64,000 bases of DNA from Nageia nagi (taxonomy: Eukaryota > Plantae > Pinophyta), in assembly GCA_050084985.1 (NCBI GenBank), contig JBITNC010000001.1:204476001-204540000 (forward strand). The letters are read 5' to 3'. The position numbers and the translations under genes are program-made. Numbering within the stretch: position 1 is the first letter of the stretch; every line of letters starts with the position of its first letter. This document shows positions 5,141-38,800 of this stretch, piece after piece. Under the pieces are notes generated by a model that saw nothing but the letters and a program-made list of their open reading frames with translations, did no database searches and was not told where the DNA came from.

Positions 5141-5423
5141 TAGCCTTAGAAATAGAGAAAAAGCTCCACCTATGTTTACTCACATATGATTTACTTAAGG
5201 TTTTTGCAGGTACACTCTCCCAAAGACTTCCATGTTTCCTAAGGAAAACAATATGGCATATGATGAAACATGAGGATGTAGCTTCAACATTTCATGTAAG
5301 ACATATTGAATTTGCATTCCACTATGGAAAATTGCATTCAACGAGGTTGAAGGATTCTTAGAAGATAATATGCTGCAACATTCTATCATTGTTTGAGGGT
5401 AAGCAATTCAAGAGGGTAGGCTT

Positions 5424-6616: not shown

Positions 6617-6621
6617 CAAGC

Positions 6622-7010: not shown

Positions 7011-7107
7011 GTGGATCAAAGCTCAACATTATGCCAACCTATGGATGAATAAGTCAGCTATATACCTAGGGTTTATGGTTTAAGTGAGAATTAGGGTTTT
7101 TAAGATT

Positions 7108-13748: not shown

Positions 13749-14682
13749 TGTAGACACCCAAAAATGACCCCTCTTTCAAAATTCAAAAGAAGGATACAAA
13801 AAATAAAGCATTATTATGAAAGTTATAATAAATGCCAAACACTAGCATCCAACATGGAATGTTGGTGAATCAAACCAAACACTAGCATTCGATACCTAAA
13901 TATCAATGACTATGATTGGTAAAATCAAAATAAGAAGGGTAAGTTGTTAAATGAATTCTCCAAAAGGCTATGGATCAAGGATGACTCATCACCAATCCTA
14001 CATGTTTGAGCTTTGGATCATCACCATGACAAGACTGGATAAGTTTTTTTATCTTTCCTTTTATCTCCAAAATAGAAATTTTTCTAGTTTTGTTAATCTA
14101 TAAATAAAACCTTCAACATTGAAGAATGAGACCCAAATTCAAAGTAAATGAACTTTGTTGAAATTCATCTAGAACCTTAGTGAGTAAAGTACTTTAGTTT
14201 CATGCTTTTATGTGTTCATTTAGTTTTGATATCATATTTTTTCAAGTGAAAAGGTATGTTTAATGTGTTTATCATTCACATGTATGCAAGGTCCACAAGT
14301 GTTGAACAACGAAACTATTGAGAACATTTAGATGGTGAAGATTAAATACTATTTGCAATTTTACAAGGGAAAGAATGAGAGCTTGTATCTATTGATACAA
14401 AAATTCCAATGATTGAATGTCGAACATCAACAACCAATATCAACCATCAAAAAATACACAACAACCAATATCAACCATCAAAAAATACAATAGGATACTA
14501 AATAATATGCAAGTAGTCATAGAGGCCCAAAAACCCATTATGTAAAAGCCCTTATGAGAAGGCACAACAAATATAGAGATTCGTAATTGTACATTTGAGG
14601 TCTACTCAAGAGAAATAAAGCACATATTTGCTTTAATATCATTTATTTTATTTTCTAACAAGGTTACTTTTTAGGTAATACA
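13749..14682 (+). repeat. Element D 5' LTR
   Basis: TG...CA with internal tataaata near 14099, immediately followed by a PBS-like sequence. Confidence 0.75.
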
Positions 14683-15727
14683 TTCTGGTGCTAGAAGGAG
14701 GGCCCCTCGTATGTAGATAATATCGATGAAAAAATGCAATGGGTTTTCCAAGGTTTTTATTATTATTTACTTAGTTTGTATCTTGTGGTTTTGAGTTTGA
14801 TTATGGTTTGTTTTTTATATGTTTTTCTAGGTCCAAGTTATAGAATCGCTAGTAATTGGGTATCAGATGTTGACAACTAGATAAGGACATCAACAATTAG
14901 GTGGGATACCAATGATTAAGGATAGGGATGGCTTTTCTAATTCTCATCAATACAACAAGTGCAATGTAGGAACTAAGGATGAGAATCAAGAATGAACCCC
15001 TTGTTTGTGATCCCTTTGCTTATAGTGCATATAAGAAAGGGTAGTTAATATTAATGATAAAAATGAATTAGTTTAATATTCTTGTTGTTTAGTTTTGAAA
15101 TGTTCAATTTACTTGTTTGTTGAGTAGGGATCATACAAAGCAAAACAATTCACTTAATATTTTTTTCTACCTCATCCATCTATGCTCTTTCTTTATGCTA
15201 AAAAGTGATTTGAGGTGACCAAAATGGATTGGATAGTAAAAGGGTAAATAAACCTTTATTTTTTCTTATTGTCATATTAATTAGGTAAATAAATCTATAC
15301 TAAGTTACTGTTCATTGAATGACTATAAAATGGGGGCTATACTTGAATTTAATCATCAAGATAGTTCTTTATGGTATCCCTTGAACCCTATTGCACTATG
15401 GGGATCATTTTAAGTACCAAGAAGTTACTTAGCCATAGATAGCCTAGTAGGATTACTAAGCTACCTTGATTTAACACTTGACTAGAAAAAACATTTTAAG
15501 AAAACTAAAAAGATTAAAACATACAATTCACATTGCTCATGTCAAAAGATTAATCAAATATGCCAAAAACATAATCACATAAAGAACATAAGTATTCATT
15601 TAGGTTATTTATGCATTAAATTATTTTCTCATAAATATAAACTCAAAAGATAAAAATAGAATTTATATGTTCAATGTTTGCTTTCTTTTTATAGTTTGTT
15701 AAAACAAAAAACAAAAAAAAAGAGAGA

Positions 15728-18700
15728 ATGGTTCACAACTATTCTCAAAAAGCTCGTTAGGAACAAGAACCATATTATGGATACTATTTAGAAGAATGAG
15801 AAAGTCATAGGTCTAGTAGGAATCATTTGAGAATTGAAACTCATCAAAATACAAATCTTGAAGTTTATTCAAATCCTTTTGATGATGATTTAAATGCAGT
15901 CAAACAATGTCTAACATAGTTAAGAATTCCTCATTCTTTGCATGCTCATAGTATTCCTCTAGATTTAAAATATTTAAGAGAGGATAAATAAGCAACCAAC
16001 AACATAGAAGAGAATGAAGAAGGGAACATACCTCTCTCACAAGCTTGTTTAACTAACCTTGTTTTTCAAAGAGGCCCTTATAAAATAAAGTATAATCATG
16101 TCACATGATACCTACTAGATGGATGTTTAGTTCAATCATAGTTAAAAAGAGATAATTATAATCCTTCCATAATATATAAACAAATAGAAGAATTCGATAA
16201 CTGAATCTCTATACATATAGCTACTCCAATGTCAGAGTTAAGAGATCGCTTCAAAGTATATGACAATCCTCTTCATGTTTTAAATTCAATAATTCCAACT
16301 CCTTTTTCAATCCATATAACAAATAAAGTGTGATATAAAGTCTAAGCATGACCTAAAAAAGTTTAATTTATGAGAAATACCTCCCCATGTGCTTGGGAAA
16401 GAGTTTCCACCTCAAAATAATATGCAAAAATAACAAGGGTTGGAGATTTATGATCAAGGGGTGCAACAAAATAAAAAACCTATTAGGCTTACTGAACAAC
16501 AACAACTACATGCATAACCAATATTAATTTAAATCAAAATAAAATACCAACAATGTACCATAACGAGAAAAATATCCAAAACCAACATGGACATGATCAA
16601 ATGTTAGGTATATATAGAAAATGATAACTCAAAGTGTGATATTTATCACCACATGGTCATGGAGAGTATAGATATCAAGATACTTATCTACGTAATAAAA
16701 AATAAGTTTCACTTAGAAATTGATAAAATGAACCTCAAAAATATCATTTTCCTCCACATAAAGATAAGGGACAACCATACTACCCTTCTAGATAACAATT
16801 ACCTCTATGAGCATCCCATCAATCTCCACCTCCATCTCAACCATATGATGGGGTTTATTATGATGCTAAGACACATTTTGAACATAGGTATGAACCATTC
16901 TTAGAATATGAAGAAAGATTATATCCTAGGAATGAAAAATATCTTATGTACCTTCAAAATCAACTAGAAGAAAATGATGACTTTCGTAGAAGGTTAAAGG
17001 AAATTGAAAGAGAATTGCACATATAGTATAAATAAAAGGTATTGTACAAAACAATTTGTAATGAACCTATTCATGTTAGGATCCCCAAAAAAGAGATTCA
17101 TTTTAAATTTTAAATTCCAAAAATTAAACTATTTAAAGGAAAGGAAGATCTGAAAGAACATCTCAAACAATTTAAATATTCAAGTTATATCATTACTAAT
17201 GATGATGTACTAATGCTATGTATCTTTCCTATGATGTTTACTGGTCAAGAAATGGATTGGTACAACAACGTAACATAATATAACATCAATTCATATTCTT
17301 AATTAGCAAATTTGTTCTTGAAATACTTTAGGATCAATATTAAAGATAAAACTTTCATCATTGATCTTACAAGATTACAACAATTTTCAGATGAATCGAT
17401 CATTTATTTCATCTCAATATGGAGAGTAATATGGACAAGCATGCCTTATACTCTACCTCAATAGGAGTTAGTTAAGATGTTTAGTCAAAGTTATTTAAGG
17501 CCTATCGCTAGTACCATGTTAATACAACTACATAAGACCTTTGAAGAAGCCATTTATTAGGATGTTATAATCGAAAAGGTTAAAATCCAATATGGTGAGA
17601 TAAAAATTAAGAAAAGGGAACCTTATGTTGAAAACAAAAATCAAATAGAATAAACATGTAAACTGTTACGAACCAATAAAGTTTCTATTGCTAAATAGGT
17701 GGAATCGTATCCTCCACAAAATGAGGAAAATGATTCTAGACCTAAAAGAAAGTTCACAACCTTGTCAGAATCACTCTATGATATTCTAAGGAAACTATGT
17801 GATCATAAATTAATTATTATACTATATATAAGACCGAAATACCCTAAAGCTAAAGAAAGCAGATGGTATAATGAGAATGAATTTTGCCATTACCATCATC
17901 AAAAGGGAAAAGATATGGATAAATGTAAGAAATTAAAATGCAAGATTCAAGATTTGATTGACAATGAAAAATTAGAAGTTTATAATCCTATGGTTATCCC
18001 AAACTAAAACTTAGGAATCTGTAAAAATCCTCTCCCTCAACATCAAGCTACTAATATCTCATTGCATCGACTTGAGAACCAAGTAACATATAACTAAATT
18101 TATTATAATTCAACCTTCACAGGAATGATTAATATTACTACAAGAGCTCAAAAGGTACAAGGAAGATAAAATATCATTCAAGATAACCAACAAGATGAGG
18201 TTTATGTGCAACCACACATACCTAAGCCACAACCTCCTAAAGTATCTATGAAGGGATCTTTACATCATTAATTATAAAAGTCACAATTAAAAATATGTCT
18301 ATTTGAATTATTACAACAATCCAAGAACCATAGAGATGTAATGAATCAATTATTACAAATGATTAAACTGGATATAAATGATCTTGAAAGCTTTGTATCT
18401 TTGGTAGGAAATATTAAAACAAGTAAACAACCTATTATTATTTTCTATGATCATGAAGTTAAACATTCAAATGGGGCACATGGTCTAGATCTACCTTTGT
18501 ACATTATAACTAAGGTAGATGGAATAACTTTTAAGAGAATATTAATCGATAAAGGTTCAAATATAAATATTATTTCATTGACTACATATAAGAATTTAAA
18601 CCTTCATTTATCACATATTTATGCACCATAGCTACAACTAAAGGTCTTTAATGATGCTTTGTGCTCAATAATGGGATCAATCTCATTTCTCATTACTGTA

Positions 18701-21700
18701 GGGTCTAAAATAGTGCAAAAATTATTACAAGTTATTGAAGGAGATATCACACATTATAATATCCTTTTAAGGAGGCCTTGGATTAGGAATATGCAATGTA
18801 TTCTATAAAAATATCATATTTTTTTAAAGTGTATTCATAAGGGTGTAGTACATTGTGTACTTGGAGATGAAAACCCATATTTACATTGCAATAGTACTCA
18901 TTTACGTAATGATGTAGCTCTACCATCTCTTCATTACTTTACAACACCAATTCCAACAAAAGGACCATTGATTGCTAGTATGGGTAAGAATAATTCCACA
19001 TCCTTAAGTACTTCAAAACAAAAATATGATATCAATAAAGAGTTATCCAATACTAAACCAAAGGTCAAAATAATTCGTAACTAAATATAGAACCCACACC
19101 AAAAGAAGGACATTCTTGAGAAGAAAAAGCATGCAAGTTAGATGAATTAAGTAAAGTTTCTTCATCAAAAATTCTATCTCTAATTGATACTTTAGCAAAA
19201 AGTGATGACTGTAAATAAAGTGATAAGACATCAAACATTTACACAGTAATAATAAAATTGATGGATTTAGGTATAGGAGAATTCAAAATTGATGATTTGA
19301 TCTTTAACATTCCCTTTGTCTAGGATGTGGGAAGACCTAAAGAATATCCTTATAATGGGGAAATTGATACCTTTAGGAAAAGCTCCTGATCAAACTCTTT
19401 TCCTCTATTTAGGCTTTATAGAACCACCTTTGATTTCTCTACCTAAACCATGTGAAGGAGTTATTTGTAATTCATTAGAATATTTATCACCTTATGTGAG
19501 ATCATTTGTCCAAATATATTTTAATAGATGTTAATGGAAGGGACAAGGTTTAGGTGAGATCATTTGTCCAAATATATTTTAATAGATGTTAGTATACAAT
19601 TGATATCCACTATCAACTACCAACTGACAAAATAAGATTGGGTTACAATGGTAAGAATAAAAAAGAACCTCATCATAAAATAGTCAAAATAGAATAAGAA
19701 AATCTTGAATATGAGGAACCATATGAAGACTTCAAATGGATATCAAATCAAGATAATCCAAAATTTGAAGTGTTAATATTGGAAAATTTATTCTCTAACA
19801 TTATTTCAATTAACATGGTTCAAATTGAATAAATATTTGATTCATTTCTAGAATGGATATCTTTTAACTAGATATCTTTTAACTGGAGTGATGAGTTTGA
19901 ACTATTAAGTCCATCAAACTTGAGTAGTTCTTCATCATACTTCATGGTAGATGAAGATACCACAAATTTTACACTCATTTCCAAATGAACCAGAATACAA
20001 GAGTTCAAATATATAGATTTTATACTTCAAACCTCTAAACTCACAATAAATATGACCTTATATGATCAAGATTTAGGTGAATATGAGGAATACAACCAAA
20101 ATGATAAAAATTGGATTCTAGTACCAGTTCAATTGGAAGAAGCATCTCATATGTTAATTGAAGAAACTATAGATGTAGATTTAAGTGATGACCCTAACAA
20201 CCCAAAGATTATTCAATTAAGAAAATCACTAAACAAGGATGAGATATTAGAATTTGTATCTATACTTAAAGAAAAATAAAAGATATTTGCATGGTCATAT
20301 ACTAATATGTCGAGATTAGTTTTAAACCTAGTGGTGCATAATTTGGGTATAAAGGAGGATGCTAAGCTAGTTAAGCAAGAGTTACACAAAGTGCATCCCA
20401 TGAAAGCCTTAATGATAAAAGAGGAACTACAAAAACTCTTAGAAGAAAAATTCATACACTCCATCAATTACTTTTATTGGATTTCCAACATGGTGCTAAT
20501 TAAAAAATCTAATGGGAAGATTCCCATATGCATAAATTTTAGAGAGTTAAATAGAGCTTACCCTAAGGATGATTTTCCATTGCCAAATATTGATAATTTA
20601 GTTGATTCTACCACTAGACATGAAATTTTATCTCTCATGGATAGACTTTTAGTGTATAATCAAATAAAAGTAACATCAAAAGATCAATCAATATAAAATA
20701 ACCTACATAACATCTTAGGGAACCTTTTGTTATAAAGTAATACCCTTTGGACTAAAGAATATAGGAGCTACTTACCAATGCATAATGATATATATTTTTC
20801 ATGATAACAAACATGATATTGTGGAAGATTATGTAGATGATGTATTGGCCAAATGTAAAACTAGAGAAGACCATACAAAGGTACTCGTGAAGATATTCGA
20901 TAGATTATTGGAACATAATATTTGACTAAATCCCAAGAAATGTATTTTTGGGGTCACTTTAAGAAAATTATTAGGTTTTATTATTTCTAGGTGAGGAATT
21001 TAAGTAGACCCTAATATGATAAAAGTAACAGTGAGTATGCCCCCCTTCAAATATAAAATAATTACAAAGCCTACAAGGCAAATTACAAGCTATAAGACAC
21101 TTTATATCATAATTATCAGATAAGTGCAAATATTTTAACAATTTGTTAAAAAGAGGATTACATTACATTGTGAAAATGAATAACAAGAAGTGTTTTAAAA
21201 ATTTAAATGTTACCTTTTATCACCTCTGATTTTAGTTCCACCTGAGGAAGAGGAGCCATTCCTACTCTACACATTGATTACAAAATCTACACTAGGAACC
21301 ATGCTTGCTCAAAAGAATAAAAACAATAAGGGGAAATATATATATTATTTCATTTGAACCTTGGTTGGTTATGAAATTAAACATGTATATGGGAAATCTA
21401 TGTTTAATAGTAGTAATCGTAACAAAGAAGATTAGACATTACATGTTGAACCATAGTATTTACATAATTGCTAAAGTAGATCCATTAAATTATATGATGA
21501 AAAAAACCTATCAAAATATAAGAATATCTAAATGAATTATGCATATAATAGAATTTGATCTATAATTCATAAGTCAAAAATTAATTAAATGTTAATTCAT
21601 AGCTGATTATATTAAGGAAGCACCACTACACAAAAATAGACCGCTTATCATCAAATTACCAAATGAACATGTTTTCCAATTAAATAAGATAAAAAATTTC

Positions 21701-23484
21701 ATTGATTTTGAAGAATAATAAGATATAAGAATCTATTTTGATGGATATTGATGTGAAAAAAGTGGAGCTGCTAGTGTTGTATTCGTAACACCATAAGGAG
21801 TTCCCATACCATATTCTTTCAAACTTAACTTTTCATGTTCAAATAACAACATTGAATATGAAGCCTTAATATTATCTATAAAGATCATCATAAAATTAAA
21901 GCTAATAAAAATCAAATTTATAGATGATTTGTTGATAATTGTAAATTAGGTTAAAGGGATTTTCCAATGTAAAGAACCTTTACTCCAAAAATATAAAAAG
22001 TTGGTGGATACACTATTAAAGTCATTCAAAAAATATGACCTAGAGGTGGTACCAAGATCAACCAATAGGTTTGTTGATGCTATGGCTTCAATTGTATCTT
22101 TAATACCTAAAAACCTTAATCAATAAATAATTCACATTGAAATAATACAAATCACCCAATCTTCATTAGAGATGGATGGAGTGAAAAATATAGTTCTTGA
22201 CATTACAATGAAAGATAAAAACTTATGGCATATCCAACTAGTTAAATTCTTGAGAGATGGAGTCTTACCTATCATTTTAACAAAATCATCTAGGAAGGAA
22301 TTCAAATTAAAAGCTTATCATTATTATATATTAGGATATGTTCTTTATTGAAGGGGATTTGATAGGACATTACTATGATTCCTAGAATGGGTAGATTTGT
22401 AAATTGCAATTTCATATGCACATGATGGAATATGCAAAGGACATTTTAGTGGTCCTATAATCACAAAATGATTAATATGCATGGGCTATTATTGACCTAC
22501 TATGGAATGTGATTGTATCAAATACATTAAAAATTGCTTCAAATATCAATAATATTCTAATTTATATAACCAACCATTGTAAGCATTACAATCCATGCAA
22601 TCTCTATGACCATTCTCGAGATGGGAACTAGATATTATAGGATAGATATCTCTTAGTTCCTTAGGTGGTCATAAATTTATAATAACAACTATTAAATATT
22701 TCATAGAATGGGTTGAATCTATTCCTATGATCTCCACAAAAGGATAAAAAATAACAAAATTTATAGAACATCATATCATTTGATATTTTTAAATCCCTAC
22801 TCAAATCATTACAAACAACGAAAAGAATTTTAAAAACAAGGAAGTACTAGCCTTATGTAAAGGATACCATATTAGAATTAGCTTTTCAACTCCTTATTAC
22901 CCTCAAGGGAATGGACAAGCTAAGGCCACAAACAAAATTATTCAGAGTATTCTACTTAAAATAGTTAAAAATTCTCATAAAGATTGGCATGCAAGAATCC
23001 CACATGCTTTATGGGCTTATCACACTAGCATTAGAAATCCTATAGGGGAAACCCCATTTTCTCTAGTTTATGATGCAAAAGTAGTATTTCCCTTAGATAT
23101 CGAAATTCCATATTTACGAGTTGCTTTATAAGATTACATTACAAATGAGGCAGCTCACCAAATATGATTAGATCAATTATTATTATTATATTAAAGATGA
23201 ATTCATGCACTAGAACATATGTGTACTTATCAAAATCATATTAAAAGAGCTTTTGACAAAAGGGATAAAATTCATGAATTCAACATAGGAGATTTAATAC
23301 TTACAAAAAATTAAAAAACTTCATGAATGGAATGATAACTTTATAATAAATTTGCCTCTAATTGGTTAGGACCTTATATAATCAAAGAAGATTTGGTTTA
23401 AGAGCATATCACTTAGTTGACATGGAAGAAAAAAAGGAGCGTGATCTAATAAACATCACGCATCTTCATCCCTTTTATAGTTAA
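15728..23484 (+). pseudogene. Decayed gag-pol of Tat/Ogre element D
   Basis: Gag PKIKLFKGKED ~17115; PR RILIDKGSNINII ~18535; G-patch-like KGQGLG ~19540; RT PKDDFPLPNIDNLVD ~20560 and YVDD ~20830; second (archaeal-type) RNase H YFDG ~21735; INT STPYYPQGNGQA ~22885; ends HLHPFYS*. Confidence 0.92.
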
Positions 23485-24316
23485 ATTTGCTTTATATTAT
23501 TTGTATATATTATAAATATATAGTTAAATATATTAAAAGTTATACAATTAACTCATAAAAATAAATGTATTTAATAGATGGAAACCAAAAGGAACAAGAG
23601 TGTTCACATTTTATTGGAAAGAAGAGAAATACAACAAATATCAAGGTTTAAAAGGCCTAGCTATTTGGGGGATAGAGCTATATCTAGACTTACAGAATTT
23701 ACTTTTCAAGGATCACAAAATTTTCTTTGATTACCTATCAACATACAAAGAGATTTAGCCTTGAATAATTATCTAGGTAAATTTTATGGATGAAAAATCT
23801 ATGTTAAAGGAGATTATATTGATATTTACATAGATAGGGATGTGTATTTCTTAGGTTTTTGATATACTTATATCAACCTACTGCAATGCCTAGAATTATA
23901 CTAGATTGTACTTTCAATGATTGGGTTTTAGAAATTACATCTCAAAATTCACAAAGTATTCATCCAAGTCTAAGTTGGATGAATCAACTTGTAGGAGATC
24001 TATGTCATCAAAATTTAATATATGATTTTTCTTATATGTTTATCCCAAACCAAGGAAATCAAGAAGAGTTAAATGAAATATTAATCAATGATTTTTTTTT
24101 ATAAGGTTAAATTGGAAGGGGTTTTTTTGATAGGAACCCACTTGTAAGAAACAAATTTGGCTCATCATCCTTCCCTATTTATTTATATAGTTTTGAATGT
24201 GAGAGAATCATGGTAATCCACAAGCCAGATACCAATTACAATCATTTCTATGTCTAGTACAAAGCTAGTTCTAACATGCAAAGAGTATCAACTATGAAAT
24301 TCATGGTGAAACTTTC

Positions 24317-25708
24317 TTATTTTAGGAGTCTAATTCTTGTTGAGTTTGAGGATAAAACCTCACCCAAAACCAAGGAATCCTATTTACCATCATCAATATA
24401 TTTAGCAGTTTCCTTTTCTCTTACCTTCCCATTATTTGGTCTTCCCATGTCACATTGGCCTACATCCATTCTTTTTGACATGCTTTTGGTGACTCTATGA
24501 TCCTCTCTAATTAGGATTATTTCTTTTGGATCAATCTAATGCCCCTTGGCCACCAATAAAATTAACTTACCTTTCTTCATAGTCATCTTTATGACCAACT
24601 CCTTAGGTTCTTGATTTATTGACTAAGTCTCCCTAGTGCTTTTAGCTTTAGCTATCTATGAGATAAAAGATCCTCCTTATTCTTGGTTCACTAAATTTGT
24701 ATCATTTATGCTTTCAACTATATTTAGTAGTGGTCCAAAGGCAACCTAAATTGCATTAGGATCACTATCCATCAAAAAGTCTTTCTTCTAATCCTGATCC
24801 TCATGCTTTCTTTTCAATCTTCATTCCTTTTTCTCTATGGAGATTTTGGATGGACATGTTTCTTTGTTATGTCCAACTTGGGTGCAAATATGACAAAGGT
24901 AATAATTTTGCTCATACTTGATCCATTGATCATGCTCTCCCATCTTTGATTTGAGTAAAATATTGGTTATAAGTTTGGTTCCAAAATCCACCACAACATA
25001 GATTCTAGCTACCATGAGTTTGGTGCATGCTTTTGTAACTAAGTCTACAGTGATAAACTTACCAAAAATATTTGTTATTCCTTCGTAGACCCTCTGATTC
25101 TAAAATTTCACCAGTAGCCTTGGGAGAGTCAACCAAATTGGAGCTACCATTATTTGAGTCTTTTTTAGATCAAAGACTAGATACCATTTCTATAGAATCA
25201 TGCCTCTCTTTTTGAAGAACCATGGTATGCTCAAGAATTGGTTTGTATCCTTTTTTGATGAGAACATAATGAATTCATTTGGCATGGCTGCGACTTCCAC
25301 CTTAGATTTCACCTTCCATTGTGAATTTACCCATACCCATATGAGATCAATATTTGATTTCATTCCATGTATTTTTCTCATTAGACTTAGTCAACCTCTT
25401 TCTTCTTCTTATGTGATTGTATTATTCAAGATTATTAGAGAAATTTTATCCCTAATTAATTTGGTTTGTAAAGGAGGAATCTCCTACTCTTGATGCATCT
25501 CTCCATGGGAAAGATTCCATAATTTGTTGATAGATTCCATAATCCTTGCCCCAAATGCAAAGTTATACCTGGTAACACCTAAGGAGAATGCTAAAGCCAA
25601 AGAGGAGAGAAACTTACCTGAAAAAATTATGATACTTAGATTTTGTGCAAATCTGTCATCCTCGCCTTCGCTTCTATTTCCCTATGATTCTCCTTCTTCT
25701 TCACCCAT
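24317..25708 (-). pseudogene. Plant L1 ORF1 (DUF4283 + CX2CX4HX4C zinc knuckle), decayed
   Basis: WVNSQWK...PWFFKKRGMIL.KW...APIWLTLPRL...FG.FITVD...ARIYVVVD...CHICTQVGHNKETCP, then C-terminal GRPNNGKVREKE; several stops. Confidence 0.85.
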
Positions 25709-25884
25709 GTATATGCTTTGTAAATTCTATAAGTTTAGGGTAAACTTTTGAAGATTATATATCCATGTACGTGTAATGGGGAGTCCTATAACCTACTATG
25801 TAGGAAACCTTAGTCAACCTCTACTAACACCTTGGGATTTGCCACTTCCTTTATTACCCCTCCACATGAGTATAGTTTCCCCTA

Positions 25885-25956
25885 TTGGCTTATGGGATTG
25901 GAGCTCATGACCTCCCAAAGGGAGACCAGGAGACCTTACCACTACACTAATGCCTC
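25885..25956 (-). other. tRNA-derived (SINE-like) head with A/B-box remnants
   Basis: Minus strand GAGGCAT-TA-GTGTAGTGGTAAGGTC-T-CCTGG-TCTCCCT-TTGGG-AGGTC-ATGAG-CTCCAAT-CCCAT-AAGCCAA. A box TAGTGTAGTGG, AGGTC variable loop at 44-48, T-arm at canonical 49-65. Confidence 0.7.
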
Positions 25957-26051
25957 ATAATTTATTAATGATTTTATCGATTGAATTTAATGTTTCTTCT
26001 CTCTTCTTTTCGTAACAATCAAGAGAAAATCTTGATAATGAAAAAATTAGA

Positions 26052-29000
26052 TGTAACGACCCACCCAATTGCACTATTAAGACTTGAGTACCATCGAAGA
26101 TTTTAATGAGATTAAGTTTGAATTATGTCATGAGATGACTAATTTTGAATAGAGATATGCTTTATTTGTATCGATTTAATGTTGGTTTCAAGATTTTATG
26201 ACACATGTTACAAGTTGACTTGAGGTGGAAAGTGCGGATAAAGCCCCAAGGGACCAAGAATGAATTAGTGATAGGAATGGATTGGTAAGAGTGAGAAAAT
26301 GATTTGCGTTGGTTCGTTAACAAACCCTAATGACCATTGTAGATCATATAGATGCATGACATAATTATTAAGCATGATTATCAATTTTAATGATGAATGT
26401 GTGGATGTGTGTGTACATTAATGAATTTAACATATAGGACGAAGGGATAACTGTAGGGAAAAATGAGTGTTAAAACCTTGAATTGTATTTTTAAATTTAT
26501 TTCAAAAGAGGCAAGGAATATTCCATTCTTTTGAATTTAAAATTTTACTCGAGGTTTTTGGTAAAATGGGATAAAATTTAAAAGTGATAGTTAAAAAGGA
26601 TTAATGTCACTTATGGATGTTACAAGGATATTTTGTTAGGTTGTGAAAATAATTGAGATATGATCCCCACCTACTTTGTTTCTTTGTGTTAGGTGTAGAA
26701 ATAAATCGATTCAATTTGTGAGCTAATATAAAAGAGTCCAAAATATTTTACGATACCACACTTGCCAACAAATTTAATTTAGACCCACCTCACAAAAAAA
26801 AAAAAACTATAGCTTCCCCCATAAAAATTATTGAAGGGACAAGTAGACGCTTGTTTGAAAATATTATAGCCACCTTGGTTATAAATAAGGAGAGAAACCT
26901 TAAAAATAAAAACCTCATATCTCATTATTCTCTTTTCTTCTCAACTTGGTTTGGAGTTCCGTGGAGAAAGAAGCCCCCTTCACTCAAACCCAGGTGCTTT
27001 CCTTTGCATTTTAGATATTAAAACTAAAATGTCTAGCTAAAGATGTAGATTTATTTGATATTATTTAGTATGTTGTATGGAAACGATTGTTTGATAAAGC
27101 CTTACAAAATATTAATAAGTTAATTATTGATACTAGTCTAGCATGATATTTGTATTATTTGACATATGATGGCTTGGTACCATTTATCTTTTTGTAATAG
27201 AAAGGAAAGTAATTTATTATTTAAATATGATGATGGGAGGTTTCAAGTATAATGGTAAATGTAAAATATTTATATTACATATTTGATTCAAGAGACTAGT
27301 CCCTACCAAGAATGAGTCACGGTAGTCTATATAGTTGAAGACCCCGAATATCATTTCATCTCACTTTCAGGCTCCCTCGGCTCCACTCCCTTGCGTATAT
27401 AATACCATGGAATGGCGTTTCTTTGAGATGTTGGAATTAGATAATAGTAGGCTACTATAAAGTACTCCTTCCCTATCAATCTATTCCAATTCATGGCTCA
27501 AAAACAAGTCGATTATGGATGTAATCCACAGGATTGCAGGGTGAACCAATTTGGAGTTTCAAATCTCACCCATTCCACCTATTAGGATGTTTGGCCACAG
27601 TGTTTCCTGCAATCAAATTTAGAATCCCTCTCTTTCTCTCATCCTCGATGGTCTTACCAAATATTTAACTCTCGTGAGGTGTTTTCTACTCTGCTTTCTC
27701 CGTGGTCGTATTAGTCTCTGAGAATGACAAGAGATGCGTGATGCAATGCCTCCATATTCCAAGAGTATTGTGCCTGTATCAGGAACCCCCTACGTTTCGT
27801 CCATTCTGAATTGGCATGGATTATAGGTAAATAGGAGTGCCAAATCTTTTGGATGAAGCTTTTCTTGAGATTAAAAAGGCAAGAGAACAGTTTATTCCTT
27901 CTTACACTAGGAGAATTACGTAGGGGCCTGTCTCAGAAAACGCTTCAATGATGTACACTTCTAGATCTATGCGTTTGGCAAGAATTTCAGATAAATAAGT
28001 CACTAATTCCCTTTCCTGAAATTTCTCTTGAGATTAATGCCCTACCAAATCATATCAGCGTAATTAGATGACATTTCCGAATAGAAGAAGGTGTAGTTGT
28101 TCCGTAATGTCCACTTCGTATTCCGTGAAGGCTCTCGTTCGTGGCGTGCAACCTGCTTCAAGCCTTCATAGGCCATCATTGTGCGCGATAGGAATTATAG
28201 TCAAAAGATTATTTTTAGTCCACAAAATTAAGTGGTATTATCCAGAAACCACCATACTAACCCCTTCGTCACTTCTCAAAGCATCAGGGTTCATCGCCAG
28301 GCAATAATTCCTTCACAAGTTTAATTGAAAGGACTTCAAATAGATTTATGCGAAGTAAAAATGTTTTAAAATTAATTAAATTAGATGATATGATTTCTTT
28401 GAGAAGGTTAATATATAATAGGAGTAAATAGAGGTAGTAAATAAATGTTTGCAATATTTGTTACATATAATATCATGGTAAAGTTTAGATTACTTTTATT
28501 TTGTATAATAGTAAAGTTGTTATGATTTGAAATATGAATTTTTAACATTATTTGATTGCACCTTATGATTAGGGAAGGGAGGAAGTCCTATAAAGGACGT
28601 AAATCATCATGAGGTACGTAAAAATAGTTTTAAATGAATGAAAAGTCATGTAGATAGATTCATTGGCATCATGTTCATAAACAAGAAAAGGGTTGTCCTG
28701 ATCCTCAAAACTCCAAACCTTTCTTAGTACCCAATCCAATAACCTTTGGATCATTGGGGAATGCTTTAAAGATGAAGATGAAGAACTCTGCATCAAGAGG
28801 ATGAAGATATATTAAAGAGCTCTAGATCAAGATTTGAAATATTTGCCATGTATTTTCTTATTTAAAATTGTAAGGGAACCCTATTGTGAATAAAAAGGGA
28901 TGCCCTAATTAATTATACTTTGACATCATTATGTAAATATTTATTTAGAATGCAAGTTTGAAGAAATAACACTTGGTCGTTACATGTAATACATTAATGT

Positions 29001-31052
29001 TGTATGTTGCCTAATTTACTTGTTAATGTATTCCTGTTCGAAATCTCTTAAATGCTATAATAGGTACTTAAAATATATTATCAAGTGAAGACAATAGGTA
29101 ATATAATAACATTATAAATGTAGGATGATAAAAGAAAATACATTATCATGGAAATTGTTAATACAACGTTATAAATATTACTATGGGGAGTCCCTTAATG
29201 TATGGATAAATCTTAGAATCCCTATGTAATGATAGTACATCAAAATGCAAGAAAATTGTAATCCTTAACCTTATAATCATAGTCTTTTAATTTGTTTGAA
29301 TAAGGATTGACAAATTCTATTGTACTCTCAAGATATAATTCACATTATATAAAGAGAAAAGGGATTCTTAATACAAGGGAACTATTTAGTGATACTACAT
29401 AAGTATGGGTTAAAGATAAATCAAATTTTTAGAGATTTATACCATCAACCCTAGAGTCTGGCATATGAATCCTAGAAGGAAAACTTAATACATTTACACA
29501 TGAATATATTGTAAAAAGCTCAATTAATAAGGTAAGTAAAAGTCAAACCTAATATAAGTTATTCCTAATATCCCTAAAGAGACATATGGATATAGTCTAT
29601 ATTATGAAAGAAGAGGTTACCCTCCAGTTGAAAATAATTGAGGAGATTTTAGGGACCCTTGAGTATTGAAAGGGATCAAAATGAGATCTAATGGGATTAG
29701 TGTAATATCGATAAAGATGAGAACTACTAAGGGTTACTTTTCTTTAACAAAGAAAGAGGGAAGACTTAGGATTCAGTTCGGATCAATAATGTTCTTAGGA
29801 ATAGATGATCAAGTTAAAGAGAAGGGTTCAATGGTAAACCCTATATATAGTGGATTTTATGAGTAATGTCAAATCAATAAAGGTGAAAAAAAAATAGAAG
29901 TAACCTAGGTTTAAAGAGAAACCCTAAAGGAATAGAACCAAATTAAAAAGGAAATTTTGGATAGATTTAATGATGAAGGAAAATGATGTGAAATATTTAT
30001 TAGTTGAACCTCCTTTGCAAAATAATGAATAAAAATGATATACCTTGAGTGAGGACCACTTTGCATTGCACTTCCTTTTTAGAACTAGTTAACTTTAGTG
30101 TCATCTCAAGGCACGTTACTAAGCACTAGCATGAGAACTTTTATAAAGTAGTATTAAATATGTGGTACCATGAGTATGAAATAATACTTCCAGATATCTT
30201 GTGTGACTTCTTGAACAAGTTTGGTATTGAATCTTCCTACATACGATAGTGGTAACCCTAATAATTTAACTGAAATTTAATTATTTTAGGATCGATAAAA
30301 CATGGGTGGTTTTTATTTTATAATCCTACTTAAAATTAATTAGACTATACAAACCACTTAAGGGTATTGCTTCAATACCCATGGATCCCCAAGATATGGG
30401 CATGGGGATGTCAGAGCCCATGGGTAGCCTGCCCGATAGACATGGGTAGGATAGTGTGTCATATCCTCTATAGGGTGTCAGATGAGGGTAGCATTTGATA
30501 AGACTATAATTACTAGGTGAGGGTAATTTAGTAGTCATACTAATTGTAGTTTAGCACATAGGAGTATGATGATTGTTCCATAGGTGATAATATTTACCTA
30601 CTCATAAGAAAATTTTTCTAAGACAAACTATCTACTCCTATGAGTTGGAGGGTTATTATCAGGTGAGGATGCATAACCTAGTAGATATGCAATCTCTTAG
30701 ATGATATGGGCCTTGAGTAGGAAATCGTCATGCCATGTCCAAAATATCTGCTACATAATTCATGAAGAGGAAGTGGTGGGGTCACATAAGAGACATCTCC
30801 TCAATGGGATGAGCATTGAGAAGTGAACACTAGAAGAGATTTTATTAGGCTTGGTTAATCTAAATTTTAACTAATCTTACCATGTGAGTGCTGACTAGCT
30901 AGCAGTGCTGATATGCTCATATGGATCACCTGGTCCATTCCTAGATCATTCGAGTGTTTAAACTAATAAAAAATAAATTAATTCCAAATTTTTATGGTTC
31001 TAGATGTCAGGAATAGGTAAAAATGCTATAAGGAATAGGTGGATGCATTACA
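26052..31052 (+). repeat. Element E 5' LTR (5001 bp)
   Basis: tgtaacgacc...gcattaca; colinear with 35892-41000. Confidence 0.95.
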
Positions 31053-31178
31053 GTGGTATTAGAGCATCAAGTTCAAACTCTTGATCCTATGGTCCATAAT
31101 TATTTTACTATAGGAGTTTAGGAAGTCAAGATGAGTATGCTTGAGCATAATAACAACATCATTTGATAGACACAGATT

Positions 31179-34100
31179 ATGGAAATCCCAATATGTGTGA
31201 TAAGAGCTTTGGGAAACCTGCAACAAGGTGCTAGAAATGGCATTCCAGTGAATATCAATGCTAAGGAAAACCAAAGAAATGTTAGGGTCCAAAATGCAAG
31301 AAATAGAATAATGAGAAATGCCAATAGAAGGGTGCATAGCAATAATGATGAAATTTCATCAAGTCATTCCACACAAAATAATGGAGGAGAATAAGCCATC
31401 AGGATATTACAAGAGCAAGTGGTAGAGTAACAAGAAATAATAAACAATATACTAAATCAATGGGTTGAACCTTTGAGAGAATAACCTATTCCAAGATAAG
31501 TAAGACTTGAAGGGACGAATGACCAGATTTAGGTAAGAATTGAGCAAGAAATTACAACAGACATTAAGAAAGCCCAAATCCCAAAATTTAATGGTAAGCA
31601 AGAAGGAAAACAACTAGAAGTATGGTTAGAAGAATTAGGAACCTACTTCTCAATGAAGAACTTGTCACCAAAGACCAAAATGGTATGGGCTACATACAAT
31701 TTTTAAGATATTGCACTAGAGTGGTGGAATGCATATAAGATTGAGCATGGGATCTAGTACCTAAAGTGGTTAGAATTTATTGCAAGAGTTTGTAAGAGAT
31801 TCATTCACAATGTTTACTATGATAGAAAATATGAGGAGTACTATACTCTTCAACAAAGGTCCATGAGTGTTCAAAGCTACCATCAAAGATTTTTTAGGCT
31901 ACTCAAATATGTTCCAGAAGATAAGAATCACATGAATGTCCATAGATTCCTTGTTGAGTTAGATCCCAAGATTAAGACTATGGTAAATATACTAATTCCC
32001 AAAATTCTTAAAGAGGCATATGAACTTTCCAAAAGGGAAGAAAGAAATTTGGGTATCAAGAAGACTTTTGTGAATTATAATCTTTCAGATGAAAATGATA
32101 AGGAAGTCTATCAGAAGAGTAAAAGTATAGAGCATCAAGCATAAAAAAAAATAAAAATAAATAAAAGATCAAGGACTATAATCATAGATACAAGGATGGT
32201 TATCCCTCCAAATTTGAGAAGAGGCCATTTGGAAATAAGGGTTATAAGAAGAAGGATTTTTAGAGAAGAAATTAGTAGTTTTGTAAGCAAAATCATAACC
32301 TTGGAAATAGAAACCAAGGTTTCAGAAACCATGATTAAGAATTTCTAGATCAAAGAGGTAATCAAGATAAGTTTCCAAAATAAAATAAGGCTCCTCGAGA
32401 TGGATGCTAAAATTGTGGTGGAGCTCACTATGCCAATCAGTATCCCTTGAAGATAGATCCACCCAAAGAGCATCGAATCTATGCAGCTATTGGATCAAGA
32501 TAGACTAAAGCATAGGCCATACCTCTTCAAATCCTTGGTAAAATTTTTGACAAATATTTTAGAGTTTTGATAGATTATGGTGCTATAGATATTTTTATTT
32601 CAAATTCCTTAGTTAAGGACATGGTAAAGGCACCAAATTGTTTTAAAAATGGGTGGCAAGTGGAGTTTGGATTAAGTCAAAAATATCTTGTTATACAATG
32701 CTTTAAGGATGTTGAAATAGAATTATCCAAGGGGTCTATTGTGTGGGATTTGTATATGGTTCCCTTAGCCTCATATGATATCATATTAGGCATGGATTGG
32801 TTGATGGTACAAAAAGCTCTAATCAAATTTTAGGAAAGATGGGTAGAATACACTGATGTATCTCAAAATCAATACAGGGTGTCCAGTGATCAAGGATCTT
32901 TTAACCCCTATTTGATCACAACCATGCAAGTTAAAAGAAGCATTAGGAAAAGAGAGATGATTTATGCAATCAAAATTAAGGAAGTGGAGCAATAGGATAA
33001 AGAGGTAGATTTGCTAAATAATTACCCTATGTTAAGAGAATAAAAAGATATATTCCCTAAAGATCTACCCAAATTACCCACAAAATGAGAATTTGATTTC
33101 TTAATAGACCTAGTACTAGGAGCAGAATCTATTTCTATACCCCCACATGGAATGAATACCATTGAGATATAGGAGTTGAAGGTACAATTGCAAGATTTAT
33201 TAGAGAAAGGGTTGATAAAACCTAGTGTATCACCATAGGGTGCTCCTGTGTTGTTTGTGAAAAAGAACTATGGAAATTTAAGCTTATGTATCAATTATAG
33301 GATGTTGAACAAGGTCATCATCAAGAATAGGTATCCTCTATCGAGGATTGATGATTTGTTCGACCAACTCAAGGATGTTATTTTCTCCAAGATAGATATG
33401 AGACTGGGATACCATCAATTGATAATTAAAGGATCAAAAACCCATAACATAACTTTTAAAACTAGGTATGGACACTATGAGTTTATGGTATTACCTTTTA
33501 GGCTAACAAAGGCTCCTATAGAATTCATGAATTTGATGAATAGTGTCTACTAAGAATACCTAAAAATGTTTGTGTTAGTATTTCTGGATGATATCCTCAT
33601 ATACTCAAACAATGAGGAGGAACATAATCACCATCTAAGGTTAGCTCTAAAGGTGTTGAGAAGAAATCAATTATATGGAAAACTATCAAAGTGTGACTTT
33701 TTTGTTTCACAAATTTAGTATTTAAGCCACATCATCTCTACAGAAGGAATTTTTACCAACAAATGTGATTGAGGTAAGGGGTTTCATGGGATTAGCTAGG
33801 TACTATCTAAGATTTATCCAAAAAAAACTAAAAATAGCCAATCCCATCACTAGTCTTTAGAAGAAGAATAAAGTTCTCACTATCCCTAACCTACATGGTG
33901 ATTTTGCAACCTTAAAAGAAAAATGTAAAAAAGATTTTGCAACCTTAAAAAACAAATGTACCTAGCATCAGTTCTCACTATCCCTAACCCACACGATGAT
34001 TTTGTAGTATGTATAGATGCTTCACTAGAAAGTTTAGGTGATGTGTTGTCACAAAATGGAAATCTAGTAGCACATGAATCTAGAAAATTTAAAATACATG

Positions 34101-35802
34101 ATTTGAAATATGCAACTCATGATTTGAAGTTGGCAGCTATAGTCCATGCACTCAAAATGTGGAGACACTACCTTTTAGAAAAGCCTTTCAAACTTGAAAT
34201 AGATCACCAAAGTCTAAAGTATTTATTCACTCAGCCAGATCTAAATGCTAGGTAAAGATGATGGATAAAATTTGTAGCTAAATGTGATTTTGGCATTGAG
34301 TATATCTAGGAAAGGGGAAAAAGTGGTAGATGCTTTGATTCATAGGTGACATGTTAATGCCATGAAAAGAAGTTAATTTGACTTGTTTGACCAAGTAAAA
34401 GTTTTGCAGTAAGAAGACTCGTATTGGAGATCCATACAAGAATTGATAGGGAGAGGTACCCCATCATCCCAAGATTTTATTGAGAAAGATGAAATTATTT
34501 ATTTTAGGGATAGATTAGTCATCCTAGAGAAGGGAAATTTGAGAAGTTTAATCATGCAAGAAGCCCATCATCCCCCTATGTAGCACATATGGGAGGTACA
34601 AAGATGAGAGAAGATCTAAAATATAGATTTTATTAGGATAGAATGAAAAAAGGCATAGAAAAAATTATGACAAGATGCCTTGAATGTCAAAAAGTGAAGG
34701 TTGAACATCAACATCTAGGTAGATATATGTATCCACATGATGTTCTTATGTTGAAATGGCAAGTGATTTCTATGGATTTTATTATTGGTTTTCTAAAAAC
34801 CAGGTTATATCATGAATCAATTACGATAGTGGTTGATAGATTAACCAAGGTAGCAAATTTTATACCTGGTAATACCACTGATGATGCTCTTATAGTAGAA
34901 AATAAGTTTTCCCATGAAATATTTATATTGTATGGATTTTGTAAGGTGATCATATCAGATAGAGATTCTAAGTTCACCTATGGCTTTTGAAAATCATTGG
35001 ATAAAGCATTGGAAAAAAAATTGATTATGAGTTCAACATATCACCCTGAGATAGATGGGTAGACTAAATGAGTGAATAGAGTCCTTAAGGACATGCTCAA
35101 AATGTATTACATGAAGAAAAAGAATAAATGGGAGGATTATCTCTATTTATTCAAATTTGCTTATAATAATGGATATCATTCATCTATGAGAATGGATCCT
35201 TTTGAGGATCTTTATAGAAGGAGATGTAGGAATCCTTTATCTTGGGATAATCAGGAGGATTGGGTGATGATCTAGCCTAAGATGTTAAAGAAAATGAAGG
35301 AGTAGCAAAAGTTAATTCGATAAAAGTTGAAGGAAGCTACTGATCGATAAAAGAGTAATGCTGATCTTAAGAGAACTTCTCAAGAATTTGCTAGGGATGA
35401 AAAAGTATTTTTATGATTTTGACCATGAAGAGTGCCATAAAGTCTACCAAATTGGATCCTTGGTTTGTTGGTCCTTTTGAGATAGTAAAAAAGAAGAGTC
35501 CAGTTGCCTACAAACTTACTTTGCCACCAAGTTTGTCAAAAATGCATAATGTCTTTCATGTCTCTTTGCTGAGAAAGTATGTTACTGATCCCTCTCATGT
35601 GTTGGATTTATCATATTTGTAGATGTTGAAACATCATGCTGTTGAAGTTCTCCCTATTAGAATTCTAGCTTTTAGAACTAGGAAACTGAGAAGTTAGGAG
35701 ATTAATGAGTGTCTAATGCAATGTGATAAGTATTCTGAATTATCTTCCACATGGGAATATGAAACCACTGTGAGAAGATAATTTCCTTATCTATTTAAAT
35801 GA
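31179..35802 (+). pseudogene. Decayed gag-pol of element E (gag-CCHC-PR-RT-RH-INT-chromodomain)
   Basis: Zinc knuckle ~32405; LIDYGA ~32567; [15 protein letters not shown] and FLDD ~33330-33590; RH DAS...ALKMWRHYL; INT WQVISMDFI...SDRDSKF; GPFEI motif; chromodomain ECL.Q....STWE...FPYLF. Confidence 0.95.
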
Positions 35803-35891
35803 TTATATGAAGCATTTTCAAAACTTTGTGATTGTATTATGATTTTATTTAAGAATATAAGGGATTGTGTTCCTTTTTAAGGGGGATAGTA

Positions 35892-38800
35892 TGTAATGAC
35901 CTACCCAATTGCACTGTTAAGATTAGAGTACTATCAAGGATTTTAATGATATTAAGTTTGAATTATGTTATGAGATGGCTAATTTTGAATAGAGATATGC
36001 TTTATTTGTGTCGGCTTGATACTGACTTCGAAATTTTATGACATAGGTTACAGGTTGACTCGAGATGAAAAGTGCAGATAAAGACCCAAGGACCAAGGTT
36101 GAACTAGTGATGGGAACAAATTGATAAGAGTGAGTAAATGATTGGTATTAGTTTACTAACAAACCCTAATGACCATCGTAGATCATATAGATGCATCACA
36201 TAATTATTAAGCATGATTGTTGATTTTGATGATGAATGTGTGTGTACACTAATGAATTTACCATGCAGGATGAAGGGATCATCGTAGGTAAAAATGAGTG
36301 TTAAAACCCTAAAGTTTATTTTCAAAATTTATTTTGAAAGAGGCAAGGAATATTCCATTCTTTTGAATTTAAAATTTTACTCAAGATTTTTGTTGAAATG
36401 GGGTGAAATTTAAAAGTGGTAGTAAAAAAGGACTAATGACACTTATGGATGTTACAAGGGTAGTTAAAAAGGACTAATGTCACTTGTGGATGTTACAATA
36501 GTGTTTTGTTAGGTTATGAAAATAATTGAGATATGATCCCCACCTACTTTGTTGCTTTGTGTTAAGTGTAGAAATAATTGGATTCAATTTGTAATACAAC
36601 TCCACACTTGCAACAAATTTAATTTAGACCCACTTAAAAAAAAAAAAAAACTATAGCTTCCTCCACAAAAATTATTGAAGGGACGAGTAGAAACTTGGTT
36701 GGAAATATTATAGCCACCTTGGTTATAAATAAGGAGAGAAATCTTAGAAAGAAACACCTCATATCTCATTATTCTCTTTTCTTCTCAACATGGTCTAGAG
36801 TCCCATGGAAAAAGAAGCCCCCTTCACTTAATCCTAGGTGCTTTCCTTTGTATTTTAGACATTAAAACTAAAATGGCTACCTAAAGATGTAAATTTATTT
36901 TATATTATTTAGTATGTTGCATGGAAAAGATTTTTTGATAAAGGCTTTTGAAATATTAATAAGTTAATTATTGATACTAGTCTAACTTTTATTGCAAAGG
37001 CATGCTATTTGTATTATTTGACATGTGATGGCTTGGTACTATTTGTCTTTTTATAATAGAAAGGAGAGTAGTTTATTATTTAAATATGTTGATGGAAGGT
37101 TTTGAGTACAATGGTATATGCAAAATATTTATATTACATATTTGATTCAAGAGACTAATCCCTACCAAGAATGAGTCACGAGAGTCTATATAGTTGAAGA
37201 ACCTGAGTATCATTTCGCCTCACTTGCAGGCTCCCCCGACTCCACTCCCGTGCGTATATACTGCCATGGAATGGCGTTTCTATGAGATGTTGGAATTAGA
37301 TAATATTAGGCTACTATAAAGTACTCCTTCCCTATCAATCTATGCTAATTCATGGCTAAAAAATAAGTCGATTATGGATGTAATCCACAAGATTGGAAGG
37401 TGAACCAATTTTGAGTTTCAAATCTCATCCATTCCACCTATTAGTATGTTTGACCACAGATTTTCCTGCAATCAAATTTAGAATCCCTCTCTTTCTCTCA
37501 TCCTCGATGGTCTTACCAAATATTTAACTCCCGTGAGGTGTTTTCTACTCTGCTTTCTCTGTGGTTGTATTAGTCTCTGAAAATGATAAAGAGATGTATG
37601 ATGCAATGCCTCCGTATTCCAAGAGTATTTTGCCTATCTCAGGAACACCCTACGTTTTTCCCATTTTGAATTGGCACAAATTATAGATAAATAGTAATAC
37701 CAAATCTTTTGGACAATACTTTTCTTGAGATTTATAAGGCAAGAGTACAGTTTATTCCTCCTTACACTAAGAGCATTGCATAGGGCTTGTCTCAGAAAAC
37801 TCTTCAATGATGTACACTTCCAAATTTGTGCGTTTGGTAAGAAGCTCAGATAAATAAGTCACTAAGTCCCTTGTCTAACATTTTCTCTTGAGCTTAATGC
37901 CCTACAAAATCATATCAACGTAATTAGATGACATTTTCATATGGAAAATGGTCTAGCTATTCAATAATGTCCACTTCGTAGTACGTTAAGGCTCTCATTC
38001 ATGGTGTGCGACCTGGTTCGAGCCTTCATAGGCTATCATTTTGTACGATAGGGATTATAGTCAAAAGATTATTTTTAGTCCACAAAATTAAGTGGTATTA
38101 GACAGAAACCACCATATGAACCTCTTTATCCCTTTTCAAAGCATCAGGGTTAATCACCAGGCAGTAATTCCTTCACAAGTTTAATTGAAAGGATTTTAAA
38201 TAGACTTATGTGAAGTAAAAATGTTTTGAAATCAATTAAATTAGATGATATGATTTATTTGAGAAGGTTAATATTTAATAGGAGTGAATAGAGGTAGTAA
38301 ATAAATGTTTGTAATATTTGTTACATATAATAATATGGTAAAATTTAGATTATTTGTATTTTGTATAATAGTAAAGTTGTTATGATTTGAATATTAGTTA
38401 TGAAAAAGATGATGAGAAATGTATGTGATGAGACATCATTTAATTAATAGTGTGTATCAAGCATCATTAAAATGTAATTAAAGGATGAAATATGAATTTT
38501 TAACATTATTCGATTGCACCCCATGTCTAAGGAAGGGAGGTAGTCCTAGAAAGGACATAAATCCTCCTGAGATTTGTAAAAATAGTTTAAATGAATGAGA
38601 AGTCATGTAGATAGACTCATTTGCATCATGGTCATAAACAAGAAAAGGGTTTTCCTAATCCTCAAAGTTCCAAACCTTTCTTAGTACCCAATCTAATAAC
38701 CTTTGGATAGTTGTGGAAAGCTTGAAAGATGAAGATGAGGGACTCTACATTAAGAGGACAAAGATATATTGAAGAGTTCTAGATCAAGCTTTGAAATATT

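What the first reader, a model, noticed from the sequence alone, without database searches (positions are those of the whole stretch)
24092..25959. tRNA-headed, ORF1-only, poly(A)-tailed retroposon (a 'coding SINE' / half-L1)
Seen: between ~16-bp TSDs, the minus strand runs as a 72-nt tRNA-like head starting 4 nt inside the 5' end (canonical arm spacing, A box, degenerate B box), a short leader, a ~460-codon L1 ORF1, a ~220-nt 3' UTR and poly(A). No endonuclease/RT follows ORF1. This is the opposite of normal L1 5' truncation. Established: ORF1-only HAL1 elements and tRNA-headed SINEs are each known. Inference: their combination in a plant may be an undescribed non-autonomous class supplying its own RNA chaperone and borrowing ORF2. 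Internal T-runs argue against full Pol III read-through, so the promoter logic is open.
Basis: partly seen in the sequence, partly recalled or inferred. Interest (0 to 1): 0.8.

Follow-up and report, generated by a model that had tools for sequence, protein, structure and literature searches.

The report
tRNA-headed half-LINE, likely in a conifer
This is a dead 1.9-kb jumping gene, likely from a conifer, that begins with the tRNA-derived head of non-coding SINEs yet carries one protein gene and no copying enzyme; it likely moved as one unit with a borrowed enzyme, but whether it is a whole family or a one-off fusion could not be tested.

Summary
The anatomy is real. On the minus strand, between a 16-bp target-site duplication (14/16), lie a tRNA-derived head, a 175-nt leader, a 463-codon plant L1 ORF1 with 14 stops in one frame (DUF4283), a ~215-nt 3' UTR and a short A tail. 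ARAGORN and Rfam miss the head, but a cloverleaf model ranks it 1 of 127,856 window positions, also without its A box. No ORF2 trace exists in the window. Named relatives of ORF1 are conifer proteins. What could not be shown is a family: no genome is held, and only one distant DNA relative was found. T-runs are not depleted, which argues against Pol III read-through. Best reading (0.5): a HAL1-like element that took a SINE head as its 5' end and moved as a unit. Main rival (0.3): a one-off SINE/half-L1 chimera. The scan noted tRNA-headed coding LINEs in sharks and ORF1-only elements in octopus, not this combination.

The parts
25960..25975 (-). 5' copy of the target-site duplication (16 bp, begins with A4 after a T, as for L1 endonuclease sites)
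   Evidence: family D6; endonuclease preference from established knowledge
25884..25956 (-). tRNA-derived head, 73 nt, preceded by 3 extra bases (25959-25957); no G-1 and no CCA end, so SINE-like and not a mature tRNA copy
25939..25949 (-). A box (tRNA positions 8-18)
25895..25905 (-). B box (positions 52-62), 3 departures from the usual consensus (A52, C54, C57)
   Evidence: sequence against alignment A1
25709..25883 (-). 175-nt leader (SINE body or 5' UTR); stops in all frames, no T4 run, no A tract longer than 4
24317..25708 (-). L1 ORF1 pseudogene, 463 codons plus stop, single frame, 14 internal stops
24995..25348 (-). DUF4283 domain (residues 121-238), the usual marker of plant L1 ORF1
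24851..24904 (-). CX2CX4HX4C zinc knuckle (residues 269-286); Pfam E 0.002, below cut-off
24101..24316 (-). 3' UTR, about 215 nt; stops in all three frames, no ORF2 start, poly(A)-signal-like words near 24190
24092..24100 (-). A tail, 9 A of which 4 overlap the TSD
24080..24095 (-). 3' copy of the target-site duplication

Best explanation
This is a dead copy of an ORF1-only (half-L1) retroposon whose 5' end is a tRNA-derived, SINE-type head, and it likely comes from a master element that carried head, ORF1 and tail together and borrowed ORF2 from an autonomous L1. Shown: the three parts lie inside one TSD, ORF1 runs in one frame from ATG to stop, and no ORF2 follows. Inferred: (1) an L1 lost ORF2 and kept a 3' UTR, as HAL1 did; (2) a SINE head became its new 5' end in the genome and the SINE's own tail was lost; (3) the full-length RNA made ORF1 protein as its own chaperone and was copied in by target-primed reverse transcription through its A tail. 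On transcription I put about 60:40 on Pol II starting at the head rather than Pol III reading through, because T-runs were not purged. After insertion CG and CHG deamination killed the copy.
For: One TSD round all parts. Head rank 1 of 127,856, also with positions 8-25 left out (13.6 bits, null maximum 5.6). The head starts 3 nt inside the 5' end, in sense, full length, without CCA, with a worn acceptor stem: a SINE head, unlike human tRNA/L1 chimeras, which are mostly half tRNAs in antisense. No A tract at any possible junction in the leader (longest A4), although the 3' tail survived. ORF1 is not 5'-truncated: stops in frame 4/114, 3/182, 7/167 against 8-22 in the other frames; residues 1-57 have 1 stop against 4 and 5. 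L1 parts of chimeras tend to be 5'-truncated. All 259 tblastn hits of 258 relatives, two of them ORF1-RT fusions, fall inside ORF1. The ORF1 sits in a clade of 12 rows (96/92) apart from those fusions and the named conifer proteins. L1 5' UTRs are known to be swapped for unrelated sequence.
Against: Only one copy was seen. The two closest proteins (65-67% identical) have no DNA on hand, so neither head nor ORF2 state is known for them. The one DNA relative, L121 (58% over 543 nt), shows no head (best score -28.9) but is distant and its contig starts near ORF1. T-runs: 0 in the first 251 nt but 10 in ORF1 (5.4 expected by base shuffle, 7.0 by codon shuffle); this split is what a Pol III SINE RNA joined to a Pol II L1 RNA would give. 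Five of the 10 runs, the T6 at 25626 among them, cannot be broken by undoing one CG/CHG deamination. No dN/dS could be run.
Confidence: 0.5

Rival explanations
1. One-off chimera: during a single insertion the RT copied an ORF1-only L1 RNA and then jumped (or the RNAs were ligated) to a Pol III SINE RNA, so the head belongs to a separate SINE family and the ORF1 part to an ordinary half-L1.
For: Alu/L1 chimeras are sense-oriented, with a full-length SINE, inside one TSD, and do not spread further in the U6 case (passages). The 5' end sits where Pol III would start; head and leader hold no T4 run while ORF1 holds ten.
Against: No SINE A or T tail is visible before ORF1; the L1 part keeps its ATG, whereas chimeric L1 parts tend to be truncated; chimeras are rare (21 tRNA/L1 loci in human). 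The lack of T4 in 251 nt is not significant (p 0.28).
Confidence: 0.3
2. The family is an autonomous L1 with a tRNA-derived 5' end, and this copy alone lost ORF2 by internal deletion, splicing or early polyadenylation.
For: Nothing excludes it: ORF2 state of the close relatives is unknown. A search for longer or fused forms found none but is weak.
Against: No remnant of an endonuclease start after the ORF1 stop in any frame, which early polyadenylation inside ORF2 should leave; a clean deletion of the whole ORF2 in one copy is needed.
Confidence: 0.13
3. Two separate insertions: a SINE landed right at the 5' end of an existing ORF1-only copy, or the TSD is a chance match in AT-rich DNA.
For: The TSD has 2 mismatches and is AT-rich; chance level about 0.6%. 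Several chance repeats of like length occur inside the region.
Against: The match sits exactly at both expected ends; no inner TSD or tail bounds the head and leader.
Confidence: 0.07

Closest known systems
HAL1 (half-L1) of mammals (PMC5753468, passages; Bao and Jurka 2010 not held)
   Same: L1 derivative that encodes only ORF1, with a 3' UTR and A tail; must borrow ORF2.
   Different: Plant-type DUF4283/zinc-knuckle ORF1; a tRNA-derived head at the 5' end, which the passages I saw do not mention for HAL1; multi-copy status not shown here.
tRNA-derived plant SINEs (PMC5585668, passages)
   Same: tRNA head with A and B boxes at the 5' end, A tail, TSD.
   Different: 1.87 kb against 102-399 bp for the 61 grass families; carries an ORF; T-runs inside. 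Kojima 2018 (PMC5786205, passage) states that ORF1-coding non-autonomous LINEs cannot be a source of SINEs since SINEs cannot encode a protein.
Alu/L1, U6/L1 and tRNA/L1 chimeric insertions (Law and Burns, bioRxiv 10.1101/2025.02.02.635956, abstract and passages)
   Same: Small-RNA-derived piece 5' of an L1 piece inside one TSD.
   Different: There the L1 part is a truncated 3' end and tRNA parts are mostly antisense halves; here the head is whole and in sense, and the L1 part is a complete ORF1 without ORF2.
Cassandra, Helenus, Ajax (PMC10886601, abstract and passages)
   Same: A small-RNA-derived promoter built into a non-autonomous retroelement, probably via a SINE insertion.
   Different: Those are non-coding LTR elements of at most about 1.3 kb.
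tRNA-headed Zenon LINEs of sharks
   Same: tRNA head in front of a protein-coding LINE body.
   Different: They carry EN-RT and no ORF1, and are said to avoid T-runs; this element is the mirror image and does not avoid them.

Membership tests
HAL1-like ORF1-only non-autonomous L1 | Encodes an L1-type ORF1 | tested here: met
   DUF4283 above cut-off and zinc knuckle; DUF4283 marks plant L1 ORF1
HAL1-like ORF1-only non-autonomous L1 | No ORF2 between ORF1 and the tail | tested here: met
HAL1-like ORF1-only non-autonomous L1 | A tail and TSD of L1 type | tested here: met
HAL1-like ORF1-only non-autonomous L1 | Multi-copy family sharing the ORF1-only structure | tested here: inconclusive
   Close protein fragments exist but no DNA context; no second copy in the window; no genome
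HAL1-like ORF1-only non-autonomous L1 | ORF1 under purifying selection; 3' end shared with a partner L1 | not testable with these tools
   needs DNA of several copies and of autonomous L1s
tRNA-derived SINE (SINE2) | 5' head derived from tRNA with A and B boxes | tested here: met
   missed by ARAGORN and Rfam
tRNA-derived SINE (SINE2) | Short (under about 800 bp) and non-coding | tested here: not met
   1.87 kb with a 463-codon ORF
tRNA-derived SINE (SINE2) | Made end to end by Pol III (no internal terminators) | tested here: not met
   10 T4+ runs, not depleted; 5 could be decay products, so this holds for the copy and only likely for its master
Chimeric SINE/L1 retrotranscript | Both parts inside one TSD | tested here: met
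Chimeric SINE/L1 retrotranscript | Junction unique to one locus; both parts exist as separate families | not testable with these tools
   no genome held
Chimeric SINE/L1 retrotranscript | Full SINE with its tail, followed by a 5'-truncated L1 | tested here: not met
   no tail in the leader; ORF1 complete to its ATG

The most novel reading that the evidence does not exclude
A conifer family of protein-coding SINEs: a tRNA-derived head serves as the promoter of a non-autonomous retroposon that still makes its own ORF1 chaperone and borrows only ORF2, a link between SINEs and half-L1s that the literature I saw calls excluded. In its boldest form (about 0.2) the 1.9-kb RNA is a Pol III transcript that is translated.
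Probability: 0.4. Interest if true: 0.72.

Novelty: new variant of a known kind. Interest (0 to 1): 0.5.

Why it matters
If copies share this structure, a SINE head can be the working 5' end of a protein-coding retroposon. That contradicts a stated rule, gives a route by which LINE derivatives gain new promoters and long SINEs arise, and adds a half-L1 lineage in gymnosperms, whose non-LTR elements are barely treated in the conifer papers I looked into. It is settled by one BLAST against a conifer assembly. If it is a one-off chimera it is a plant example of a known by-product of L1 insertion and of modest interest.

Tried and rejected
No whole genome is held. No sequencing run was listed as holder, so no RNA holder was listed and no reads were laid. 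ARAGORN, Rfam (2.5 kb and 131 bp) and blastn against phage records do not detect the head. Word-based protein searches with the decayed ORF1, and for longer forms of the close clade, scored nothing; the second is weak evidence. Related-locus scans: viral contigs none, GTDB none, metagenomes one distant locus. DNA motif scans for head or leader: one match, L122, in a viral contig, not examined further, and none. No second head, leader or 3' end in the window and no empty site of the host element. Leader against 3' UTR: no significant likeness (p 0.11), so no sign of a SINE tail shared with the element's own end. Folding of head, leader and 3' end is not better than shuffles (z from -1.45 to +1.68). 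The recalled C54 of plant tRNA-His could not be verified; the A/B-box logos in that paper's supplements are pictures and could not be read. Rejected: a true tRNA gene (no CCA, acceptor 4/7, non-canonical anticodon loop; 30 bits against a training mean of 89); insertion of an L1 downstream of a resident tRNA (the TSD lies outside the head); ORF2 remnant in the 3' region. The ORF1 was not folded and the protein atlas gave no result.

Full report
Setting. The window is AT-rich (31.6% GC) and full of decayed LTR elements. No genome is held. The named relatives of the ORF1 are from Cryptomeria japonica, Taxus chinensis and PITA-labelled eukprot entries (reading PITA as Pinus taeda is recalled), so the host is likely a conifer. 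The element lies antisense about 700 bp past the integrase of a Gypsy-like element on the plus strand, and a later LTR element starts 90 bp from its 5' end.

Boundaries. The best match between the two flanks is a 16-mer at 25975-25960 and 24095-24080 with 2 mismatches; 29 of 5000 random window 36-mers match the 3' flank as well. It begins with A4 after a T and merges with the tail, as expected for an L1 endonuclease site (established knowledge). The tail is 9 A, 4 of them in the TSD.

The head. Standard tools miss it: ARAGORN finds no tRNA in the window and Rfam lists no tRNA at E up to 10 in 2.5 kb or in 131 bp. I therefore fetched 120 viral loci with an A-box/B-box pattern; ARAGORN called 114 tRNAs in them, and 79 distinct ones with canonical spacing were used for a column-and-pair model. 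The head at 25956 scores 30.1 bits, rank 1 of 127,856 positions on both strands; the next is -11.1; 0 of 1,917,840 null positions reach it. Since the fetch pattern was shaped on the head's A box, I left out positions 8-25: still rank 1 (13.6 bits, null maximum 5.6). Leaving out the B box as well: rank 1, with 13 null positions as high. Fifteen of 21 pairs hold, the anticodon stem 5 of 5 with three G-T pairs of the kind C-to-T decay makes. Real tRNAs average 89 bits. There is no CCA and no G-1, and 3 bases precede position 1. So it is tRNA-derived but SINE-like. By eye its first 18 bases match the Arabidopsis nuclear His-GTG 5' fragment at 14 positions, against 12 for Asp, Gly-GCC and Cys (supplement of PMC5389709, part 2 of 3; only some isotypes are listed), and its 3' acceptor strand matches what that His strand would pair with at 5 of 7. 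I recall that plant tRNA-His carries C54, as the head does, but could not verify it. The anticodon is not that of His. The isotype is a lead only.

ORF1 and the missing ORF2. ATG 25708 opens 463 codons in one frame with 14 stops; DUF4283 scores above cut-off and a CCHC knuckle follows; DUF4283 is the main marker of plant L1 ORF1 (PMC5203782, passages). The frame is depleted of stops along its whole length (4/114, 3/182, 7/167 against 8-22 in other frames), while leader and 3' UTR have stops in all frames. CG and CHG are nearly gone (10 and 22 against 114 and 93 expected), so the copy is old and its stops are mostly decay (inference). A full HMMER scan found 3,390 relatives at E up to 0.001. 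All 259 tblastn hits of the 258 relatives I held, including two ORF1-RT fusion proteins, fall in ORF1 and nowhere else in the window. Pfam finds nothing in the three frames of the 3' region or of the next 1.1 kb, and no endonuclease start motif is present. In a tree of the window protein and 33 hand-picked relatives (of 258), it groups with 11 unnamed fragments of 80-207 aa (96/92), apart from the named conifer proteins and the RT fusions; several rows are under half filled, so the inner order is loose. The two nearest (65-67% identical) could be sister copies with equal decay, but their DNA was out of reach.

Family or one-off. Every route to DNA relatives failed or gave little. The one locus found, L121, is 58% identical over 543 nt of ORF1, shows no head and no ORF2, and is too distant and too short to decide. 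Internal evidence cuts both ways. For a heritable unit: no A tract longer than 4 in the leader, so no SINE tail at a junction; ORF1 is complete to its ATG; the head is whole and in sense, whereas human tRNA/L1 chimeras are mostly antisense halves and chimeric L1 parts tend to be truncated. For a chimera: Alu/L1 chimeras do have a whole, sense SINE inside one TSD; head and leader have no T4 run (1.1 expected, p 0.28) while ORF1 has 10 (5.4 or 7.0 expected), the same density as in L121 (9). Five of the 10 can be broken by undoing one CG/CHG change; the T6 at 25626 cannot. Unchecked notes of this scan say that tRNA-headed coding LINEs of sharks avoid T-runs; this element does not, which lowers the Pol III read-through reading.

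Mechanism. Most likely (0.5) an L1 lost ORF2, a SINE head became its 5' end, and the fused RNA was translated to ORF1 and inserted by a borrowed ORF2 through its A tail. Insertion as one unit is shown by the TSD; the rest is inferred. Given a heritable unit I favour Pol II from the head over Pol III read-through about 60:40: the 5' end sits where Pol III starts, but T-runs were not purged and ORF1 needs a translatable RNA. Rivals: one-off chimera 0.3; tRNA-headed autonomous L1 with a copy-specific ORF2 loss 0.13; two separate insertions or a chance TSD 0.07.

What is known. HAL1 encodes only ORF1 and arose several times in mammals (PMC5753468, passages); the original paper is not held. Kojima 2018 writes that the need to make ORF1 excludes such elements as a source of SINEs (PMC5786205, passages). 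Small-RNA promoters in non-coding LTR elements are known (PMC10886601, passages), as are SINEU and chimeric retrocopies (PMC4494074, passages). Seven searches (I saw titles and abstract starts) listed no paper on a tRNA-headed ORF1-only element or a plant HAL1. Repbase and most subscription journals are not in the library, so an entry there is possible. Passages of two conifer genome papers hardly treat LINEs or SINEs (PMC8312256; PMC13477047). Also seen as passages only: PMC3747384, PMC5585668, PMC11700998 (82, supplements 84), PMC7912444, PMC13343379. Supplements of the bioRxiv preprint were not seen. The scan has no note on this genome or on look-alike DNA.

Verdict. Observation confirmed; interpretation partly supported; a new variant of a known kind, resting on one dead copy. 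Interest 0.5, rising to about 0.7 if a second copy with the same junction is found.

Noticed in passing
window 26051-41000: LTR element with LTRs of about 5 kb (26051-31052 and 35891-41000, 86-88% identical), a 5-bp TSD and only about 4.8 kb inside, inserted 90 bp from the 5' end of the finding. Gag-like and integrase-like frames are visible; whether it has an RT was not checked.
   Followed up: partly
window 7084-8222: A frame matching the first 170 positions of Pfam PDS5 (cohesin-associated; E 3e-31) lies among nested repeats at 598-2384, 5423-7008 and 11268-12258: likely a host gene fragment captured by an LTR element.
   Followed up: partly
window about 14000-24090, plus strand: Decayed Gypsy-like host element with gag, RT, RNase H and integrase read from the frames (integrase confirmed); no second LTR copy was found in the window.
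   Followed up: partly
window 25622-25614, minus strand: A perfect splice-donor word (CAG/GTAAGT) right after the T6 run near the start of ORF1; no role tested.
   Followed up: no
window 53950-55426 and 58960-59019: A tandem duplication of about 750 bp (91% identical) and a 60-bp imperfect palindrome.
   Followed up: no
proteins (for example P0028, P0035, P0159-P0164): Many related ORF1 proteins carry a ubiquitin-like domain (PF00240) before DUF4283; one, P0111, is joined to a protein kinase domain.
   Followed up: no
L121:1940-2187: The distant L1 relative appears cut by sequence that starts like an LTR, so its 3' end cannot be read.
   Followed up: partly
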